This document shows, one piece after another, positions 6,438 through 25,678 of a stretch of 32,000 bases of DNA (position 1 is its first letter; the number at the start of each line of letters is the position of its first letter). Source of the DNA: Candidatus Woesearchaeota archaeon (GTDB lineage Archaea > Nanobdellota > Nanobdellia > Pacearchaeales > GW2011-AR1); assembly GCA_964526265.1 (NCBI GenBank), contig CAZGIL010000003.1, forward strand, positions 13,063 to 45,062, written 5' to 3'. A model generated the notes under the pieces. That model was not told the origin of the DNA. It did not search any database and was given only the letters and a program-made list of their open reading frames with translations. The position numbers and the translations under genes were made by a program.

Positions 6438-7490
6438 ATGGCAGAGAATACTATCGAAAGAATATACATCAAGAGAATTTTTATTGCGATAATCGTATTG
6501 GTTCTTGCCGTTCTTTCTTTCTTATTAATTCGTCCAATAATTCTTTCAATAGTCCTCGGATTAATCCTTGCCTTTGTCTTTAATCCGGTGTATGACTGGT
6601 TACGCAAAACAGTAAAATCAAAAAATCTTTCAGCATCGATACTCTGTGTGGTGTTAATCCTTTTAATCCTCCTTCCAATCTGGTTTTTTACACCGATTCT
6701 TCTCAATCAGGCTCTTAAAATTTACACCAGTGCACAGCAAATGGATTTTGTTACACCACTAAAGACAATCTTTCCTTCGCTTTTTGCCTCACAACAATTC
6801 TCCTCAGAGATAGGTTCTATTCTCCACTCCTTTGTTGCCAAAACTGCAAATTCATTTGTTAACGCGGTTTCTAATATTATACTTAATTTTATCCCGATGT
6901 TCCTTCAGCTCTTGGTAGTTTTTTTCACATTCTTCTTTGTTTTGAGGGATAAGGATAAACTTGTTCCCTATCTTAAGGGAATTTCTCCTCTGTCGGGGGA
7001 AGTAGAGAAAAAACTGATAGAATATTCTGTAGGAATTACCTCTTCCGTTCTCTACGGGCAGGTGATTGTGGGTATCTTTCAGGGGCTTGTTGTAGGAGCT
7101 GGTTTTTTTATATTCGGAGTCCCTAACGCACTAATTCTTACTTTGCTCGCTATCGTCGCAGGTATTCTGCCAATAATTGGTCCACCGATAGTCTGGGTAC
7201 CGGTGGTTGTGTATTTCTTGGCGGCGGGGAGCGCTCTTCCTGCAATAGGGGTTGCAATTGCAGGGGTAATTGCATCAACAACAGATAACTTTTTGAGGTC
7301 GGTTATTGTTTCAAGAAGAACAAGCGTTCACTCTTCAGTAATTTTAGTTGGAATGATTGGAGGATTTTTCTTCTTCGGAGTTTTAGGATTTATACTCGGT
7401 CCGTTAATACTCTCTTACTTGCTGATTGGAGTAGAGGTTTATAGAAAGAAAGATAAGGAGGGCGGATTAATTGTCCACCCTAGCAGATAA
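6438..7490 (+). CDS. AI-2E family (PerM/UPF0118) membrane transporter
   Basis: Polytopic ORF. LAIVAGILPIIGPPIVWVPVVVYFL and its surroundings are typical of AI-2E/PerM permeases. I prefer the ATG at 6438 to the track's TTG at 6417 because of the TATA spacing. Confidence 0.75.
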   Translation: MAENTIERIYIKRIFIAIIVLVLAVLSFLLIRPIILSIVLGLILAFVFNPVYDWLRKTVKSKNLSASILCVVLILLILLPIWFFTPILLNQALKIYTSAQQMDFVTPLKTIFPSLFASQQFSSEIGSILHSFVAKTANSFVNAVSNIILNFIPMFLQLLVVFFTFFFVLRDKDKLVPYLKGISPLSGEVEKKLIEYSVGITSSVLYGQVIVGIFQGLVVGAGFFIFGVPNALILTLLAIVAGILPIIGPPIVWVPVVVYFLAAGSALPAIGVAIAGVIASTTDNFLRSVIVSRRTSVHSSVILVGMIGGFFFFGVLGFILGPLILSYLLIGVEVYRKKDKEGGLIVHPSR

Positions 7491-23337: not shown

Positions 23338-24027
23338 ATGATAATAAAACTTTTAATTGAAGGAGGAGGCATGAAGCCAGGACCCGCTCTTAGCCAGAAG
23401 ATTGGACCTCTCGGAATAAATATGGGACAAATAATTTCTAAGGTAAATGAAGCCACAACTAGCTTTAAGGGTTTGAAGGTTCCGGTAGAAATTGATGTTG
23501 ATCCAACAACAAAAACTTTTGAAGTTAAAGTTTTTTCACCTCCCGTTTCAGAGCTAATAAAAAGAGAGCTTAAAGTTGAAAAGGGTTCCGGAGAACAAAA
23601 AAAGCTTCAAATTGCAAATGCTTCTATAGAACAAATGATTTCTATTGCAAAAACAAAAATGCCCAATCTTCTTTGTAAGAACTTGAAAGAGGGGGTTAAA
23701 TCTGTCGTGGGAACTTGTACAAGTTTAGGAGTTTTAGTAGAAAACAAACCAGCTTCAGAGGTTGGAATAGAAATAGACGAAGGAAAGTATGATAAAGAAA
23801 TAAACGCCGAAAAAACAGAAACCTCTCTAGAAAAGAGAAAAGAATTGGATGCTTATTTCGCTGATTTACACTCTGCACAAGAGAAGAAGATAGAGTTAGA
23901 GAAGGCTGCTGCTGAGGCGGAGAAAGAAGCTAAGGCTGCCGAAGCTGCTGGTGCTGTTAAACCTACAGAAGGAGCGGCTGTTCCTGCGAAAGTAGAAGTA
24001 AAAGCGGAACCGGTTACTAAGAAATAA
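23338..24027 (+). CDS. rpl11: 50S ribosomal protein L11 (uL11) with ~70-aa Ala/Glu/Lys-rich C-terminal extension
   Basis: KLLIEGGGMKPGPALSQKIGPLGINMGQI and the downstream core are uL11. 229 aa in total. Confidence 0.9.
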   Translation: MIIKLLIEGGGMKPGPALSQKIGPLGINMGQIISKVNEATTSFKGLKVPVEIDVDPTTKTFEVKVFSPPVSELIKRELKVEKGSGEQKKLQIANASIEQMISIAKTKMPNLLCKNLKEGVKSVVGTCTSLGVLVENKPASEVGIEIDEGKYDKEINAEKTETSLEKRKELDAYFADLHSAQEKKIELEKAAAEAEKEAKAAEAAGAVKPTEGAAVPAKVEVKAEPVTKK

Positions 24028-24028
24028 C

Positions 24029-24036
24029 TTTATAAA
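24029..24036 (+). promoter_or_regulatory. TATA box TTTATAAA of the LAGLIDADG gene
   Basis: Immediately after the L11 stop and 31 nt upstream of the ATG at 24060 (leaderless spacing). Confidence 0.45.
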
Positions 24037-24059
24037 TTCTTTTGGGGTACTTTGATAGC

Positions 24060-24938
24060 ATGAAAAGGTATACCATCTCCAGAAAACTGAAAAATTATAT
24101 TAAATCTGCTTCATACACAATTCGTGAGATTAATCGGATGGCAGGGTTCGATATAAGGAATATTCTTAATAAAAATATAAGCATTAATGAGGTCCATCTT
24201 AAAAAGTTGGAAGATATTTTTAAAATAAAGTTTCGATTAAAAGAAATTCATTTTCACCCCGAGACAAATTTTGGATTTCTGCCAACAGATGTAAAAAAGA
24301 GGTTTAACTGCTCCGCGCAGTTAGCAGAATTTGTAGGGATTATGCTGGGGGATGGAAATCTTGACAGAAATCGAGTTAAAATTTCTTTGGATAAACGGGG
24401 GACGAATTATATAAGATATGTAAAACACCTTTTTAAAGCCCTATTTGGCGTAGAATTAAAACAAGTTAATGTATTAAACACAAATCAAACACACCTCCAT
24501 TATTATAATAATTGTTTGGTAAATGATTTGCTTAAATATGGGCTTAAACGCGGGGATAAAATAAGGAACAAGATAAGAATACCCCAATGGATTAAATTTA
24601 ATTTAAATTACTCGAGGTCTTGTATTCGTGGGCTTATCGACACCGATGGTTGTATTTACTTTTGCAAACGGGAAAGAAAGATTTATATCAAATTCACTAA
24701 TTTTAATCCCTTTCTCCTCAAGGATTTTTCTATTTTAACCACGGCATTGGGCTATCATTTTGTTAAGGCAAATAAAAAGAACAAAGCTCTTTATAGAAAA
24801 GATGAAGTAGTAAGATTTATTAAAGAAATAAAACCACTTAAAAGTGAGGGGATATGGGCCAACCTGGTTAAGCTTCGAGGTTTGGGACTTCGCGATCCCG
24901 GTTCAAATCCGGGTATCCCCATCACCCCCAATAAATAA
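24060..24938 (+). CDS. LAGLIDADG-family homing-endonuclease-like protein with N-terminal HTH; 3' end overlaps tRNA-Pro
   Basis: Two LAGLIDADG motifs: LAEFVGIMLGDGNL and CIRGLIDTDGCIY. N-terminal helix-turn-helix-like YTIREINRMAGFDIRNI. No in-frame stop until 24936-24938. Confidence 0.85.
   Translation: MKRYTISRKLKNYIKSASYTIREINRMAGFDIRNILNKNISINEVHLKKLEDIFKIKFRLKEIHFHPETNFGFLPTDVKKRFNCSAQLAEFVGIMLGDGNLDRNRVKISLDKRGTNYIRYVKHLFKALFGVELKQVNVLNTNQTHLHYYNNCLVNDLLKYGLKRGDKIRNKIRIPQWIKFNLNYSRSCIRGLIDTDGCIYFCKRERKIYIKFTNFNPFLLKDFSILTTALGYHFVKANKKNKALYRKDEVVRFIKEIKPLKSEGIWANLVKLRGLGLRDPGSNPGIPITPNK
24848..24921 (+). tRNA. tRNA-Pro (anticodon UGG); no encoded CCA
   Basis: Hand fold. Acceptor GGGGATA/TATCCCC. 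Anticodon stem CGAGG/CTTCG with loop TTTGGGA (G37). T arm CCCGG-TTCAAAT-CCGGG. Discriminator A. GC-rich relative to its surroundings. Confidence 0.9.
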
Positions 24939-25004: not shown

Positions 25005-25223
25005 ATGCCAAACAAATTAAAAAAATCAAAATCAGCAGGAAGATTTGGGGCAAGATACGGTAGATCTGTGCGTTCTAAGGTGGTTGAAGTTGAAGTAAAG
25101 CAAAGAAAAAAACAAACCTGCCCTTTTTGTAAAAGAGCTGGAGCAAAAAGATTATCTAATGGAATATGGGAATGTTCAAAATGCAAAAAAAAGTTTGCTC
25201 ATAATACTTTTTACTTAGATTAA
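25005..25223 (+). CDS. rpl37ae: 50S ribosomal protein L37Ae (eL43)
   Basis: SAGRFGARYGRSVR plus the zinc ribbon CPFC...CSKC. Confidence 0.93.
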   Translation: MPNKLKKSKSAGRFGARYGRSVRSKVVEVEVKQRKKQTCPFCKRAGAKRLSNGIWECSKCKKKFAHNTFYLD

Positions 25224-25224
25224 A

Positions 25225-25362
25225 ATGGTAACCTACAAGTGTTTCAAGTGCGAGAAGAAGATAACAGACAAAGTTCTTGAGAAGAGATTTGTTTGTCCTT
25301 ATTGTGGAAGCAAGATTTTCTACAAGCCAAGAACAGCGGTTAAGAAAGTTAAAACAGACTAA
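25225..25362 (+). CDS. rpoP: DNA-directed RNA polymerase subunit P (Rpo12/RpoP)
   Basis: Hand translation gives MVTYKCFKCEKKITDKVLEKRFVCPYCGSKIFYKPRTAVKKVKTD (45 aa; C..C...C..C zinc ribbon). Conserved position between L37ae and prefoldin beta. Below the ORF-track cutoff. Confidence 0.8.
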   Translation: MVTYKCFKCEKKITDKVLEKRFVCPYCGSKIFYKPRTAVKKVKTD

Positions 25363-25363
25363 A

Positions 25364-25678
25364 ATGGAAGATAAAATCCAGGAACTTCAAGTTCTTGAAC
25401 AAAGTCTGCAAAACATTCTTATGCAGCGCCAGGCTTTCCAGATGGAGCTTTCAGAAACAGAGTCCGCTCTCGAAGAAATGGAAAAAGCTGGAGATGAAGT
25501 TTTCAAAATTGTTGGTCAATTGATGATTAAATCAAATTCTACAAAAATTAAGGAAGAACTTCTAAATAAACAGAAAATTATTGAATTGCGCCTTAAGAAT
25601 TTGGAGAAACAAGAAGATTCTATGACGAAAGAAGTGGAAAAGTTAAGAAATGAGTTAATAAAGTCTTCTAAGAAGTAG
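25364..25678 (+). CDS. pfdB: Prefoldin subunit beta
   Basis: 104-aa coiled coil-hairpin-coiled coil: MEDKIQELQVLEQSLQNILMQRQAFQMELSETESALEEM...VFKIVGQLMIK. The ATG at 25364 lies 1 nt after the rpoP stop. The track's longer ORF overlaps rpoP. Confidence 0.85.
   Translation: MEDKIQELQVLEQSLQNILMQRQAFQMELSETESALEEMEKAGDEVFKIVGQLMIKSNSTKIKEELLNKQKIIELRLKNLEKQEDSMTKEVEKLRNELIKSSKK

What the first reader, a model, noticed from the sequence alone, without database searches (positions are those of the whole stretch)
24029..24938. LAGLIDADG endonuclease ORF reads through an intact tRNA-Pro gene
Seen: a leaderless-type promoter (TTTATAAA 24029-24036) drives a 292-aa ORF with both LAGLIDADG motifs and an N-terminal HTH. 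The ORF has no stop until 24936-24938. Its last ~25 sense codons (EGIWANLVKLRGLGLRDPGSNPGIP) are therefore the tRNA-Pro(UGG) gene (24848-24921) read as protein. No separate TATA box precedes the tRNA. Established: archaeal LAGLIDADG genes normally reside in rRNA introns or inteins, so a free-standing copy fused to a tRNA gene is atypical. Inference: the tRNA is probably matured out of the endonuclease mRNA, and 5'/3' processing would sever the ORF from its stop codon. tRNA production and endonuclease translation may therefore be mutually exclusive. Alternatively the endonuclease gene hitch-hikes on an essential tRNA for retention. It could also be a domesticated DNA-binding protein.
Basis: partly seen in the sequence, partly recalled or inferred. 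Interest (0 to 1): 0.65.

Follow-up and report, generated by a model that had tools for sequence, protein, structure and literature searches.

The report
Homing-endonuclease cassette that rebuilds its tRNA target
A selfish DNA-cutting enzyme gene sits on top of an essential proline tRNA gene and seems to keep that tRNA working by carrying a spare promoter inside its own last codons; the same trick appears at many tRNA genes in tiny archaea and bacteria and I found no description of it.

Summary
A 292-codon LAGLIDADG ORF (24060-24938) runs through an intact tRNA-Pro(UGG) gene (24848-24921).

TTTATTAAA (24816-24824, codons F253-I254-K255) sits at -32, the position of the tRNA-Pro TATA box in 39 of 45 relatives.

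More than 100 homologues in Woese-/Pacearchaeota abut tRNA-Pro in the same way, normally stopping at a TAG in the D-loop. Full read-through is an incidental variant, and its tail is predicted to be disordered.

Most close relatives have an empty site: L11, TATA, about 23 nt, then tRNA-Pro. One filled/empty pair shares 99.4% identical flanks. Deleted and frameshifted copies also exist.

Upstream of the ATG lies a decayed copy of tRNA positions 8-24, behind the old tRNA promoter, which now sits where a leaderless-mRNA promoter would.

My best reading is a mobile, free-standing homing-endonuclease cassette. It entered the tRNA gene near position 25/26 and restores the gene with its own promoter and 5' tRNA segment.

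Of 56 more distant homologues in DPANN archaea and CPR bacteria, 46 abut a tRNA gene, against a 1.9% background, and each protein clade pairs with one tRNA species. Cleavage, transcription and mobility are untested.

The parts
23338..24027 (+). Ribosomal protein L11 gene, the left anchor of the conserved NusG-L11-[site]-tRNA-Pro-L37ae locus
   Evidence: Pfam Ribosomal_L11_N and Ribosomal_L11. The gene order is conserved in relatives.
24029..24036 (+). TATA box TTTATAAA, the ancestral tRNA-Pro promoter. It now lies 31 nt upstream of the ORF's ATG, a leaderless-mRNA geometry.
   Evidence: In empty-site relatives the near-identical string (C/T)TTTATAAAT(TC) follows the L11 stop directly, and its first base lies at -31/-32 from tRNA-Pro +1 in 39 of 45 loci. 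In the window its first base is 31 nt from the ATG.
24043..24059 (+). Decayed relic of the tRNA-Pro 5' part, TGGGGTACTTTGATAGC, corresponding to tRNA positions 8-24 (D-arm). It marks the old, interrupted tRNA copy.
   Evidence: Local alignment to a consensus tRNA-Pro matches 13 of 17 bases; 2 of 300 shuffles reach that score. Clearer relics ending at tRNA positions 24-27 occur in L013/L142, L015, L003, L017, L023 and L009.
24060..24938 (+). LAGLIDADG endonuclease ORF, 292 aa including the read-through tail. The conserved protein ends near aa 262 (24845).
   Evidence: AF2 mean pLDDT is 88.4. Foldseek's best matches are the archaeal intein and intron enzymes TliVMA-HE, I-Tsp061I, PI-PfuI and I-DmoI.
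24060..24260 (+). N-terminal small helical domain (aa 1-67), possibly an HTH, joined to the core by a low-confidence linker (aa 68-77)
   Evidence: AF2 pLDDT is 93-96, with helices at 8-16, 21-28, 32-38 and 44-54. Pfam HTH_19 gives only E=0.058.
24321..24359 (+). LAGLIDADG motif 1 (LAEFVGIMLGDGN), with catalytic Asp98
   Evidence: D98 is invariant in 68 homologues. The motif aligns with motif 1 of the TliVMA intein endonuclease.
24621..24659 (+). LAGLIDADG motif 2 (CIRGLIDTDGCIY), with catalytic Asp196
   Evidence: D196 is invariant in 19 homologues and kept in at least 90% of 68. Pfam LAGLIDADG_3 covers this region.
24816..24824 (+). Embedded TATA-like box TTTATTAAA (codons F253-I254-K255) at -32 to -24 from the tRNA. 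This is the proposed replacement promoter for tRNA-Pro.
   Evidence: The position equals that of the tRNA-Pro TATA box in empty sites. Ile254 is ATT in 16 of 17 ORFs (p=2.6e-5) and Ile257 is ATA in 17 of 19 (p=6e-5), the strongest synonymous bias in the protein-coding part of the ORF. The segment is retained in deletion remnants L121 and L123.
24848..24921 (+). Intact, intron-less tRNA-Pro(UGG) gene with no encoded CCA
   Evidence: ARAGORN. Rfam tRNA model, 51.9 bits, full length.
24846..24938 (+). Read-through tail of the ORF (aa 263-292) plus the TAA stop. This is tRNA sequence and the 14 nt after it read as protein.
   Evidence: AF2 pLDDT falls from 73 to 37 across the tail. Most homologues stop 10-20 nt into the tRNA. 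P0019 reads the tRNA in a different frame, so the tail is not conserved as protein.
25005..25223 (+). Ribosomal protein L37ae gene, the right anchor of the locus
   Evidence: Pfam Ribosomal_L37ae. The gene order is conserved.

Best explanation
The ORF is a free-standing LAGLIDADG homing-endonuclease gene. It belongs to a site-specific cassette that lives at tRNA-Pro genes of DPANN archaea (Woese-/Pacearchaeota).

Shown by comparison:
- The ancestral locus is L11 stop, TATA, about 23 nt, tRNA-Pro, L37ae.
- In the filled allele the old promoter stays behind the L11 stop. It is followed by a decaying copy of tRNA positions 1-26 (8-24 in the window) and then by the ORF.
- The ORF's last conserved codons (...RFIKEIKPLKS) contain a TATA-like box at -32 from a complete tRNA-Pro gene.
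- The ORF normally ends at a TAG in that tRNA's D-loop.

Inferred:
- The cassette entered the tRNA gene at the junction of the D-stem and the anticodon stem, near position 25/26.
- Its 3' end brings a new promoter and a new 5' tRNA segment. The essential tRNA is therefore rebuilt without any splicing and is transcribed on its own.
- The captured old tRNA promoter drives the endonuclease, as a leaderless mRNA in the window.
- The enzyme presumably cuts empty tRNA-Pro alleles near the insertion point, and repair from a filled allele copies the cassette. The relic serves as the left homology arm and the tRNA 3' part as the right one.

In the window the D-loop has no in-frame stop. Translation would therefore run through the whole tRNA and add a disordered, unselected 30-residue tail.
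For: 1. Family-wide junction. More than 100 homologues at 40-58% identity have C-termini ending in tRNA-like codons. In loci L001-L030 tRNA-Pro starts 0-12 nt after ...KPLK, and the stop codon lies 10-20 nt inside the tRNA in most.

2. Presence/absence. Of the metagenome loci recovered with the window's L11, about 42 are empty: a 31-40 nt spacer holding TATA and then tRNA-Pro. Six are filled. L142 and L013 (filled) share 99.4% and 98.6% DNA identity with L141 (empty) over about 1.6 kb of NusG-L11, and identity ends abruptly at the site.

3. Decay. L121 and L123 keep only the last 15-20 codons, KHKVVKFFNAIKPFK (0 of 1000 shuffles reach the score), directly before the tRNA. L017 and L024 are frameshifted or degenerate.

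4. Relic. 5' tRNA-Pro fragments ending at positions 24-27 lie upstream of the ATG in the window and in L003, L009, L013, L015, L017 and L023 (0-7 of 300 shuffles). The tRNA-Gln-linked sister family shows a perfect 22-nt repeat in L055 and a similar one in L060.

5. Promoter. The TATA first base is at -31/-32 in 39 of 45 empty sites, and the embedded TTTATTAA is at -32 to -36 in 18 of 20 filled sites. The same codons show synonymous-site constraint.

6. Enzyme. Both catalytic Asp residues are conserved. The predicted fold matches archaeal intein and intron LAGLIDADG enzymes.

7. Decoupled history. Host-marker identity and endonuclease identity correlate weakly (Mantel r=0.25; 226 of 2000 permutations reach it). 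L014-L015 share 88% host identity but 52% endonuclease identity; L005-L007 share 45% and 63%.

8. Generality. Of 56 distant homologues, 46 abut a same-strand tRNA, against 12 of 623 other ORFs. Protein clades track tRNA identity. Rfam confirms the adjacent tRNA in 12 of 13 loci tested.
Against: - No cleavage, transcript or mobility data exist. Everything rests on comparative sequence analysis of metagenome assemblies.
- The rebuilt tRNA carries the presumed target intact, so self-cleavage needs an explanation. The variant D-arm or intron idea has only weak statistical support and is confounded by phylogeny and sampling.
- In an AT-rich genome, TTT-ATT-AAA codons and TATA-like strings are common. 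ATA at Ile254 would also give a TATA box, so the synonymous constraint does not prove promoter function.
- The window's relic is short: 17 nt, 13 matches, 2 of 300 shuffles.
- More than 100 intact copies with about 50% identity could also reflect a host-beneficial function with repeated loss.
- The L141/L142 pair differs over several kb, so it could be a recombination that removed the cassette, or a chimeric contig, rather than homing. L013, an independent assembly, argues against a chimera.
Confidence: 0.7

Rival explanations
1. The tRNA has no promoter of its own and is matured out of the endonuclease mRNA. Processing of the tRNA 5' and 3' ends severs the ORF from its stop codon, so tRNA production and endonuclease translation exclude each other.
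For: The ORF and tRNA overlap on one strand with no room for a terminator, so transcripts from 24029-24036 must enter the tRNA. In nearly all family members the stop codon lies inside the tRNA. Cleavage at the tRNA 5' end would therefore always leave an mRNA without a stop codon. That could be a conserved way to keep a toxic nuclease at a low level.
Against: A TATA-like box sits at -32 inside the ORF, at the spacing used by tRNA-Pro in empty sites. Its codons are under synonymous constraint. It is kept as the only strong, correctly spaced TATA-like string in remnants L121 and L123, where the ORF and the old promoter are gone yet the tRNA remains. Making an essential tRNA depend on a selfish gene's mRNA would be costly. 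The fixed -31/-32 spacing suggests that tRNA transcripts start at or near +1.
Confidence: 0.15
2. A domesticated LAGLIDADG protein, like WhiA. On this view it is a sequence-specific DNA-binding regulator of the tRNA-Pro and ribosomal-protein locus, inherited vertically and lost repeatedly, rather than a mobile nuclease.
For: Many intact copies exist, with strong conservation: 35 invariant columns among 19 sequences. There is an extra N-terminal helical domain. WhiA ranks among the structural matches. Gene order is conserved.
Against: Both catalytic Asp residues are conserved, whereas WhiA has lost them (my own knowledge). The gene is absent from about 42 of about 50 informative close relatives at the same locus. 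Its divergence is decoupled from host markers. Frameshifted, degenerate and deleted copies exist. Sister clades sit at other tRNA species in both archaea and bacteria, which fits target-specific selfish elements better than a locus-specific regulator.
Confidence: 0.1
3. A giant archaeal intron. On this view the relic is the true 5' exon, and the ORF together with the downstream copy of tRNA positions 1-25 forms a roughly 0.8 kb intron spliced out of a tRNA-Pro precursor, like I-DmoI-type introns in rRNA.
For: Relics end at one tRNA position, about 24-27. Archaeal introns that carry LAGLIDADG genes are known in rRNA. Non-canonical tRNA introns are frequent in these very genes.
Against: A complete, uninterrupted tRNA lies downstream and scores 51.9 bits at full length. 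The window's relic lacks the acceptor strand and has 4 mismatches in 17 bases, so it cannot serve as an exon. Relic and resident tRNA have incompatible acceptor stems in L013/L142, GGGGATG against GGGGTCG...CGACCCC. Rfam finds no intron family in the window.
Confidence: 0.03
4. A chance overlap. On this view an unrelated ORF simply lacks a stop codon before a neighbouring tRNA, with no biological link.
For: tRNA sequence is GC-rich and poor in stop codons, so read-through of 74 nt is not improbable in itself.
Against: The junction is conserved in dozens of loci at about 50% protein identity. Across the superfamily, adjacency to a tRNA is 82%, against a 1.9% background.
Confidence: 0.02

Closest known systems
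Archaeal intron- and intein-encoded LAGLIDADG homing endonucleases (I-DmoI, I-Tsp061I, PI-PfuI, TliVMA intein endonuclease)
   Same: Single-chain fold with two LAGLIDADG motifs and a conserved acidic residue at the end of each. These are the best structural and profile matches. They are archaeal and they target conserved genes for stable RNAs or housekeeping proteins.
   Different: This gene lies in no intron or intein. It has its own start and promoter and sits next to, and overlapping, an intact tRNA gene. It has an extra N-terminal helical domain. The host gene is kept intact by duplication of its 5' part and promoter, not by RNA or protein splicing.
Free-standing phage homing endonucleases in tRNA gene clusters, such as T4 SegB (GIY-YIG) and the T5 F-Tfl enzymes (my own knowledge; SegB is also mentioned in PMC13096335)
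   Same: A free-standing endonuclease gene sits beside tRNA genes, cleaves in or near a tRNA gene of the endonuclease-less genome, and spreads by co-conversion of flanking markers.
   Different: Those enzymes belong to other nuclease families (GIY-YIG, HNH) and live in phages. They are intergenic, with no ORF-tRNA overlap, no embedded replacement promoter and no relic of the target. Here the host is a cellular chromosome and the enzyme is a LAGLIDADG type.
Integrative elements that target tRNA genes, such as SSV-type and pNOB8-type archaeal elements and bacterial genomic islands (my own knowledge)
   Same: The element inserts within a tRNA gene and carries a copy of the displaced tRNA segment. 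An intact tRNA is regenerated and a partial direct repeat is left at the other end.
   Different: Those elements use tyrosine or serine integrases, usually duplicate the 3' part of the tRNA, and are several kb to more than 100 kb long. Here the element is about 0.8 kb with a single LAGLIDADG gene and no integrase. It duplicates the 5' part and so must also supply a promoter, which is encoded inside its own ORF.
WhiA (DUF199), a bacterial transcription factor with a degenerate LAGLIDADG fold plus an HTH
   Same: A LAGLIDADG scaffold combined with an additional helical DNA-binding-type domain. It appears among the Foldseek matches.
   Different: WhiA has lost its catalytic residues, carries its HTH at the C-terminus, and is conserved throughout Gram-positive bacteria. 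Here the catalytic Asp residues are retained, the extra domain is N-terminal, and the distribution is patchy.
Collaborative or intronless homing in phages, where a free-standing endonuclease is paired with an intron that interrupts its target (Bonocora & Shub; Zeng et al. 2009; my own knowledge)
   Same: A possible parallel. tRNA-Pro genes beside the endonuclease gene carry introns more often, 8 of 22 against 2 of 38. D-loop introns lie 3-6 nt from the inferred insertion point, as expected if they protect the resident copy.
   Different: The introns here look like archaeal protein-spliced tRNA introns (type not tested), not group I introns. The association is only statistical and is confounded by phylogeny. 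No cleavage site is known.

Membership tests
LAGLIDADG homing endonuclease (single-chain, two-motif) | Two LAGLIDADG motifs, each ending in a conserved acidic residue | tested here: met
   Motif 1 is ...GIMLGDG with D98 and motif 2 is ...GLIDTDG with D196. Both Asp residues are conserved across 68 homologues. Pfam LAGLIDADG_3 gives E=1.4e-7.
LAGLIDADG homing endonuclease (single-chain, two-motif) | Pseudo-dimeric alpha-beta-beta-alpha-beta-beta-alpha fold | tested here: met
   The AF2 model has mean pLDDT 88.4. Foldseek matches the TliVMA endonuclease domain at 5.9e-10, I-Tsp061I at 1.3e-8 and I-DmoI at about 1e-6. This is a predicted structure, not a solved one.
LAGLIDADG homing endonuclease (single-chain, two-motif) | Site-specific double-strand cleavage of a long target | not testable with these tools
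   This needs purified protein and empty-site tRNA-Pro substrates.
LAGLIDADG homing endonuclease (single-chain, two-motif) | Mobility, seen as presence/absence at one conserved site, decayed copies, and a history discordant with the host | tested here: met
   About 42 empty sites against 6 filled among L11-anchored loci. A filled/empty pair shares 99.4% identical flanks. Remnants and frameshifted copies exist. Mantel r=0.25, not significant.
Intron- or intein-encoded homing endonuclease (I- and PI- types) | The ORF is embedded in a self-splicing or protein-spliced intron, or lies in frame within a host protein | tested here: not met
   The ORF lies upstream of a complete tRNA. Rfam finds no intron family in the window. 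The flanking genes are separate ORFs.
Free-standing homing endonuclease gene (F- type) | Own start codon and promoter, not embedded in an intron or intein | tested here: met
   The ATG is at 24060 with a TATA box 31 nt upstream. The conserved MKRY start is shared across the family. The promoter is inferred from sequence only.
Free-standing homing endonuclease gene (F- type) | Located in an intergenic region so that no host gene is disrupted (stated in PMC13619312) | tested here: inconclusive
   Relics indicate insertion inside the tRNA gene near position 25/26. The gene is nevertheless restored, so the outcome looks intergenic. This is the feature that makes it a variant.
tRNA-targeting integrative element | An integrase (tyrosine or serine recombinase) encoded by the element | tested here: not met
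   The only gene between L11 and tRNA-Pro is the LAGLIDADG ORF. The neighbours are housekeeping genes.
tRNA-targeting integrative element | A partial tRNA direct repeat flanks the element, with an intact tRNA regenerated | tested here: met
   A relic of tRNA positions 1-26 lies upstream of the ORF and a complete tRNA lies downstream. L055 has a perfect 22-nt repeat.
WhiA-like domesticated LAGLIDADG regulator | Loss of catalytic residues and uniform vertical conservation in a clade | tested here: not met
   The catalytic Asp residues are retained. The gene is absent from most close relatives.

The most novel reading that the evidence does not exclude
This ORF is one member of a large, apparently undescribed class of LAGLIDADG homing cassettes in DPANN archaea and CPR bacteria. 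Each protein clade is dedicated to one tRNA species: Pro or Gln in archaea; Ser, Arg or Tyr in bacteria.

On this reading the cassettes invade the tRNA gene itself near the end of the D-stem. They escape the usual need for an intron or intein because their 3' coding end doubles as a promoter plus a fresh 5' tRNA segment.

Resident tRNA copies would be protected from the enzyme by variant D-arms or by short introns in the D-loop. That would link homing endonucleases to the spread and retention of non-canonical archaeal tRNA introns.
Probability: 0.35. Interest if true: 0.85.

Novelty: new variant of a known kind. Interest (0 to 1): 0.72.

Why it matters
Homing-endonuclease genes are thought to survive in two ways: inside self-splicing introns or inteins, or as free-standing genes confined to intergenic DNA (PMC13619312).

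This locus suggests a third way. The gene enters a short essential gene and rebuilds it, with promoter and 5' gene segment written into the endonuclease's own last codons.

If confirmed, this would:
1. Explain why many LAGLIDADG genes in the smallest known archaeal and bacterial genomes sit exactly at the 5' ends of tRNA genes.
2. Provide a set of natural, long-target nucleases whose targets can be read from the adjacent tRNA.
3. Make testable an old question: why archaeal tRNA genes accumulate introns at odd positions, possibly as protection against such nucleases.
4. Give a clear case of dual coding, where a protein C-terminus and an archaeal promoter share the same bases.

It also warns annotators. 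These ORFs are routinely mis-called, with a wrong start or a clash with the tRNA call, and intron-bearing tRNA-Pro genes beside them are missed by standard tRNA finders.

Tried and rejected
- **Group I or other catalytic intron around the ORF.** Rfam's gathering scan of the window found only two tRNAs. Rejected.
- **Intein.** There is no host protein in frame. Rejected.
- **Integrase-borne island.** No recombinase is present and the flanks are housekeeping genes. Rejected.
- **Insertion exactly at tRNA +1.** This was my first model. I revised it when relics of tRNA positions 1-26 turned up upstream of the ATG.
- **Direct sequence match to solved structures.** The single sequence gave nothing useful. 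The family profile reached only the TliVMA intein endonuclease domain.
- **Donor lineage of the L142 block.** BLAST of its segments against all held loci found no closer source.
- **Relics upstream of the bacterial tRNA-Ser-linked genes.** Local alignments did not beat shuffles. The relic part of the model is therefore supported only for the archaeal Pro and Gln families.
- **L117 and L131.** Each has about 1.4 kb between L11 and tRNA-Pro. The inserts hold unrelated genes (a TrmB-like regulator; a PIN toxin with an antitoxin), not a diverged endonuclease.
- **Literature.** Six full-text searches ran (a seventh query was rejected for syntax) and two papers were checked. None describes tRNA-linked free-standing LAGLIDADG genes. 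Paywalled papers are not covered.
- **The sigma-70 promoter and terminator scanner.** Not used, because it does not model archaeal promoters.
Full report
**1. The observation**

The window holds an ORF from ATG 24060 to TAA 24936-24938, 292 aa. Pfam finds LAGLIDADG_3 at aa 185-257 (E=1.4e-7) and a weak LAGLIDADG_2 match at aa 92-137. ARAGORN and Rfam both call an intact tRNA-Pro(UGG) at 24848-24921; Rfam scores it 51.9 bits at full length against a gathering score of 29. The last 30 codons therefore overlap or follow the tRNA gene.

The neighbours are NusG/Spt5 and L11 upstream, and L37ae, an RpoP-like zinc ribbon and prefoldin beta downstream. TTTATAAA at 24029-24036 lies 31 nt before the ATG. 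The same protein and gene order occur on 4 contigs from ENA metagenome assemblies; the two places shown come from two different assemblies.

**2. The arrangement is a family trait, not a one-off**

A protein search returned 230 homologues. About 118 are full length, 264-299 aa, at 36-58% identity, and come from Woese-, Pace- and Nanoarchaeota assemblies. Their C-termini end in ...KEIKPLK(x)(x)GAVV, GAVG or GAMG, which are the first codons of a tRNA. A few (P0008, P0017, P0052, P0058) read on through ...GLG...GSNP..., the tRNA-Pro anticodon and T arms. P0019 shifts frame within the tRNA.

DNA loci from species-representative genomes confirm this. tRNA-Pro starts 0-12 nt after the KPLK codons on the same strand. 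In most loci the stop codon is a TAG 10-20 nt inside the tRNA. Full read-through occurs in the window, L004, L011 and L029. More distant members, at about 38% identity, sit at tRNA-Pro(UGG/CGG/GGG) with a longer C-terminus, and their ORF stop still falls 10-36 nt inside the tRNA where it could be placed.

AF2 gives a confident model, mean pLDDT 88.4. Residues 263-292 fall from 73 to 37. The tail is not a conserved or structured part of the protein.

**3. The enzyme**

Both motifs keep their terminal Asp. D98 is invariant in 68 sequences and D196 is kept in at least 90% of them. Foldseek's best matches are the endonuclease domain of the Thermococcus litoralis VMA intein (5.9e-10), the archaeal intron enzyme I-Tsp061I (1.3e-8), WhiA, PI-PfuI and I-DmoI. 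A family profile matches the TliVMA intein at motif 1. NCBIfam gives only weak matches to intein-bearing archaeal proteins.

The N-terminal 67 residues form a confident small helical domain joined by a low-confidence linker. The only sequence support for an HTH is a sub-threshold HTH_19 match at E=0.058.

**4. Empty sites**

I used the window's L11 to fetch 80 metagenome loci. About 42 show NusG, L11, a 31-40 nt spacer, tRNA-Pro(UGG), L37ae, RpoP and PfdB with no endonuclease gene. Six are filled: L083, L084, L091, L095, L096 and L142. Filled and empty loci are interspersed across the range of NusG/L11 identity.

- L142 and the independently assembled L013 are filled. They share 99.4% and 98.6% DNA identity with the empty L141 over about 1.6 kb of NusG-L11. 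Identity stops abruptly in the 3' tail of L11.
- L121 and L123 carry a 71-73 nt spacer that still translates to KHKVVKFFNAIKPFK, the family C-terminus (0 of 1000 shuffles), directly before the tRNA.
- L017 and L024 are frameshifted or degenerate.
- Pairwise endonuclease identity correlates only weakly with host-marker identity: Mantel r=0.25, reached by 226 of 2000 permutations. L014-L015 share 88% host identity but 52% endonuclease identity; L005-L007 share 45% and 63%.

Together these are the usual marks of a homing-endonuclease life cycle: invasion, decay and loss.

**5. Two promoters**

In empty sites the L11 stop is followed at once by (C/T)TTTATAAAT. The first base of this TATA box lies at -31/-32 from the tRNA 5' end in 39 of 45 loci. 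The window keeps this string, CTTTATAAATTC, at 24028-24039. Here it lies 31 nt before the ATG, so the ORF now occupies the position where the tRNA would start. That is a leaderless-mRNA geometry.

The displaced tRNA has TTTATTAAA at 24816-24824, also at -32, formed by codons F253-I254-K255. An equivalent box lies at -32 to -36 in 18 of 20 filled loci.

Across 19 ORFs, Ile254 is ATT in 16 of 17 (p=2.6e-5 given 45% ATT usage). Ile257 is ATA in 17 of 19 (p=6e-5). These are the strongest synonymous biases in the protein-coding part of the ORF. This segment is also exactly what the L121 and L123 remnants retain.

I infer that the ORF's 3' end doubles as the tRNA promoter. One caveat applies: AT-rich codons make TATA-like strings easy to obtain, and no transcript data exist.

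**6. A relic upstream of the ATG**

The 17 nt before the ATG, TGGGGTACTTTGATAGC at 24043-24059, align to tRNA-Pro positions 8-24 with 13 of 17 matches; 2 of 300 shuffles reach that score. Clearer relics occur in other loci:

| Locus | Relic | Shuffles reaching the score |
|---|---|---|
| L013/L142 | GGGGATGTGGTGCAACCTGGTAACATT (positions 1-27), with its own upstream TATA | 0 of 300 |
| L015 | positions 6-26 | 0 of 300 |
| L003 | positions 1-15 and beyond | 1 of 300 |
| L017 | positions 8-26 | 2 of 300 |
| L023 | positions 8-26 | 4 of 300 |
| L009 | positions 8-27 | 7 of 300 |

All relics end at tRNA positions 24-27. In L013/L142 the relic's acceptor strand (GGGGATG) does not match the resident tRNA (GGGGTCG...CGACCCC), so the two come from different alleles.

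The simplest reading is as follows. The cassette interrupted a tRNA-Pro gene at the D-stem/anticodon-stem junction. Its 3' end carries a promoter and a new 5' tRNA segment, or a whole tRNA through co-conversion. The old promoter and positions 1-26 were left behind to decay. In homing between alleles, the relic and the tRNA 3' part would serve as the two homology arms.

**7. A wider class**

Among 56 more distant homologues, from DPANN and Asgard archaea, CPR, Omnitrophota and other bacteria, 46 have a same-strand tRNA gene starting within -136 to +35 nt of the ORF stop. The typical overlap is 10-16 nt. The background in the same loci is 12 of 623 ORFs, or 1.9%. Rfam confirms the adjacent tRNA in 12 of 13 loci tested.

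Clustering the proteins sorts them by tRNA species:
- One cluster holds all the tRNA-Pro cases.
- One holds archaeal tRNAs that begin AGCCCCGTGGTGTAGTGGTCAA, which are tRNA-Gln.
- Three hold bacterial tRNA-Ser.
- The others hold tRNA-Arg and tRNA-Tyr.

The Gln-linked family repeats the architecture. L055 has the old promoter, then a perfect 22-nt copy of tRNA positions 1-22 (similarity continues to about position 25), then a new TATA, a leaderless ATG, the ORF and the complete tRNA. L060 is similar. No relics were detectable in the bacterial Ser-linked loci.

**8. Immunity: a hint only**

The rebuilt tRNA contains the presumed target, so the host copy needs protection.

- tRNA-Pro genes next to the endonuclease carry introns in 8 of 22 distinct sequences, against 2 of 38 in empty sites (Fisher p=0.003).
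- The commonest D-arm, GGGGTAGCCTGG(T)TAGCC, is intact in 3 of 22 filled sites against 20 of 38 empty sites (p=0.003).
- D-loop introns lie 3-6 nt from the inferred insertion point. In L055 the intron starts right after position 22.

The two samples differ in phylogenetic spread and the consensus came from empty sites. This is a lead, not a result.

**9. Verdict on the interpretation**

Its core inference is not supported. That inference was that the tRNA has no promoter, is matured from the mRNA, and that the two products exclude each other.

Read-through transcripts must exist. If RNase P cuts them, they would lose the stop codon in every family member, which might limit nuclease levels. That idea stays open. 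The fixed TATA spacing also raises the possibility of leaderless tRNA transcripts, as described for Nanoarchaeum equitans (my own knowledge).

**10. Novelty**

Six full-text searches found no description of tRNA-linked free-standing LAGLIDADG genes. The papers found that mention CPR LAGLIDADG genes place them in rRNA introns, as in the one checked. A 2026 NAR paper states that free-standing homing-endonuclease genes are generally limited to intergenic targets.

I rate this a new variant of a known kind. It is a homing-endonuclease gene that restores its target gene in the way integrative elements do, through a dual-coding 3' end. The search does not cover paywalled literature, and every functional step is inferred from sequence.

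Noticed in passing
L025-L080 (e.g. L034 6001-6676; L039 3460-4123; L055 5650-6735; L060 5190-6212): Distant LAGLIDADG homologues sit directly upstream of, and usually overlap, same-strand tRNA genes. The tRNA is tRNA-Ser in CPR and other bacteria, mainly tRNA-Gln in DPANN archaea, and also Arg and Tyr. The count is 46 of 56, against a 1.9% background, and protein clades track tRNA identity. L055 has a perfect 22-nt repeat of the tRNA 5' end upstream of the ORF.
   Followed up: partly
L081-L153 (empty sites), e.g. L085 838-870, L119 5664-5697: The tRNA-Pro TATA box lies at a fixed -31/-32 from the mature 5' end in 39 of 45 loci. This suggests that transcription starts at or very near tRNA +1, giving leaderless tRNA as reported for Nanoarchaeum equitans. 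Whether these genomes have RNase P is unknown.
   Followed up: no
L003 2337-2445; L005 about 6793-6950; L006 6793-6900; L007 6796-6905; L009 6796-6925; L013 6784-6875; L018 6825-6934; L021 5956-6063; L083 2843-2968; L114 5082-5200; L128 5043-5158: Many tRNA-Pro genes of these archaea carry introns: 34-36 nt in the D-loop, 19-57 nt at position 37/38, and two introns in L005 and L128. ARAGORN in default mode misses or mislabels them. Introns are more frequent next to the endonuclease gene.
   Followed up: partly
window 23338-24027: L11 is 229 aa, with a low-complexity C-terminal extension of about 70 residues rich in Ala, Glu and Lys. Relatives have similar but highly variable tails. The breakpoint between L141 and L142 falls inside this tail.
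   Followed up: no
L117 5720-6921; L131 1494-2708: In two relatives the L11/tRNA-Pro spacer holds unrelated inserted genes: a TrmB-like regulator in L117, and a PIN-domain toxin with an antitoxin plus a small flavin-binding-like protein in L131. The spacer appears to be a general insertion hot spot.
   Followed up: partly
L056 2122-2333: Rfam finds a group I catalytic intron (80.7 bits) about 4 kb upstream of the LAGLIDADG/tRNA-Ser pair in a Patescibacteria contig. I did not determine its host gene.
   Followed up: no
window 24060-24158 (P0001): The gene call stored in the public protein collection starts at Met34 (MAGFDIRN...), giving 266 aa. This clips the conserved N-terminus while keeping the tRNA-encoded tail. 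Automated annotation of this family is unreliable at both ends.
   Followed up: yes
window 25225-25678: The longest prefoldin-beta ORF (TTG 25277) would overlap the RpoP-like zinc-ribbon gene (25225-25362) by 86 nt. Public gene calls on two contigs carrying this same protein differ (129 aa on L161, 133 aa on L162), so the true start is uncertain.
   Followed up: no
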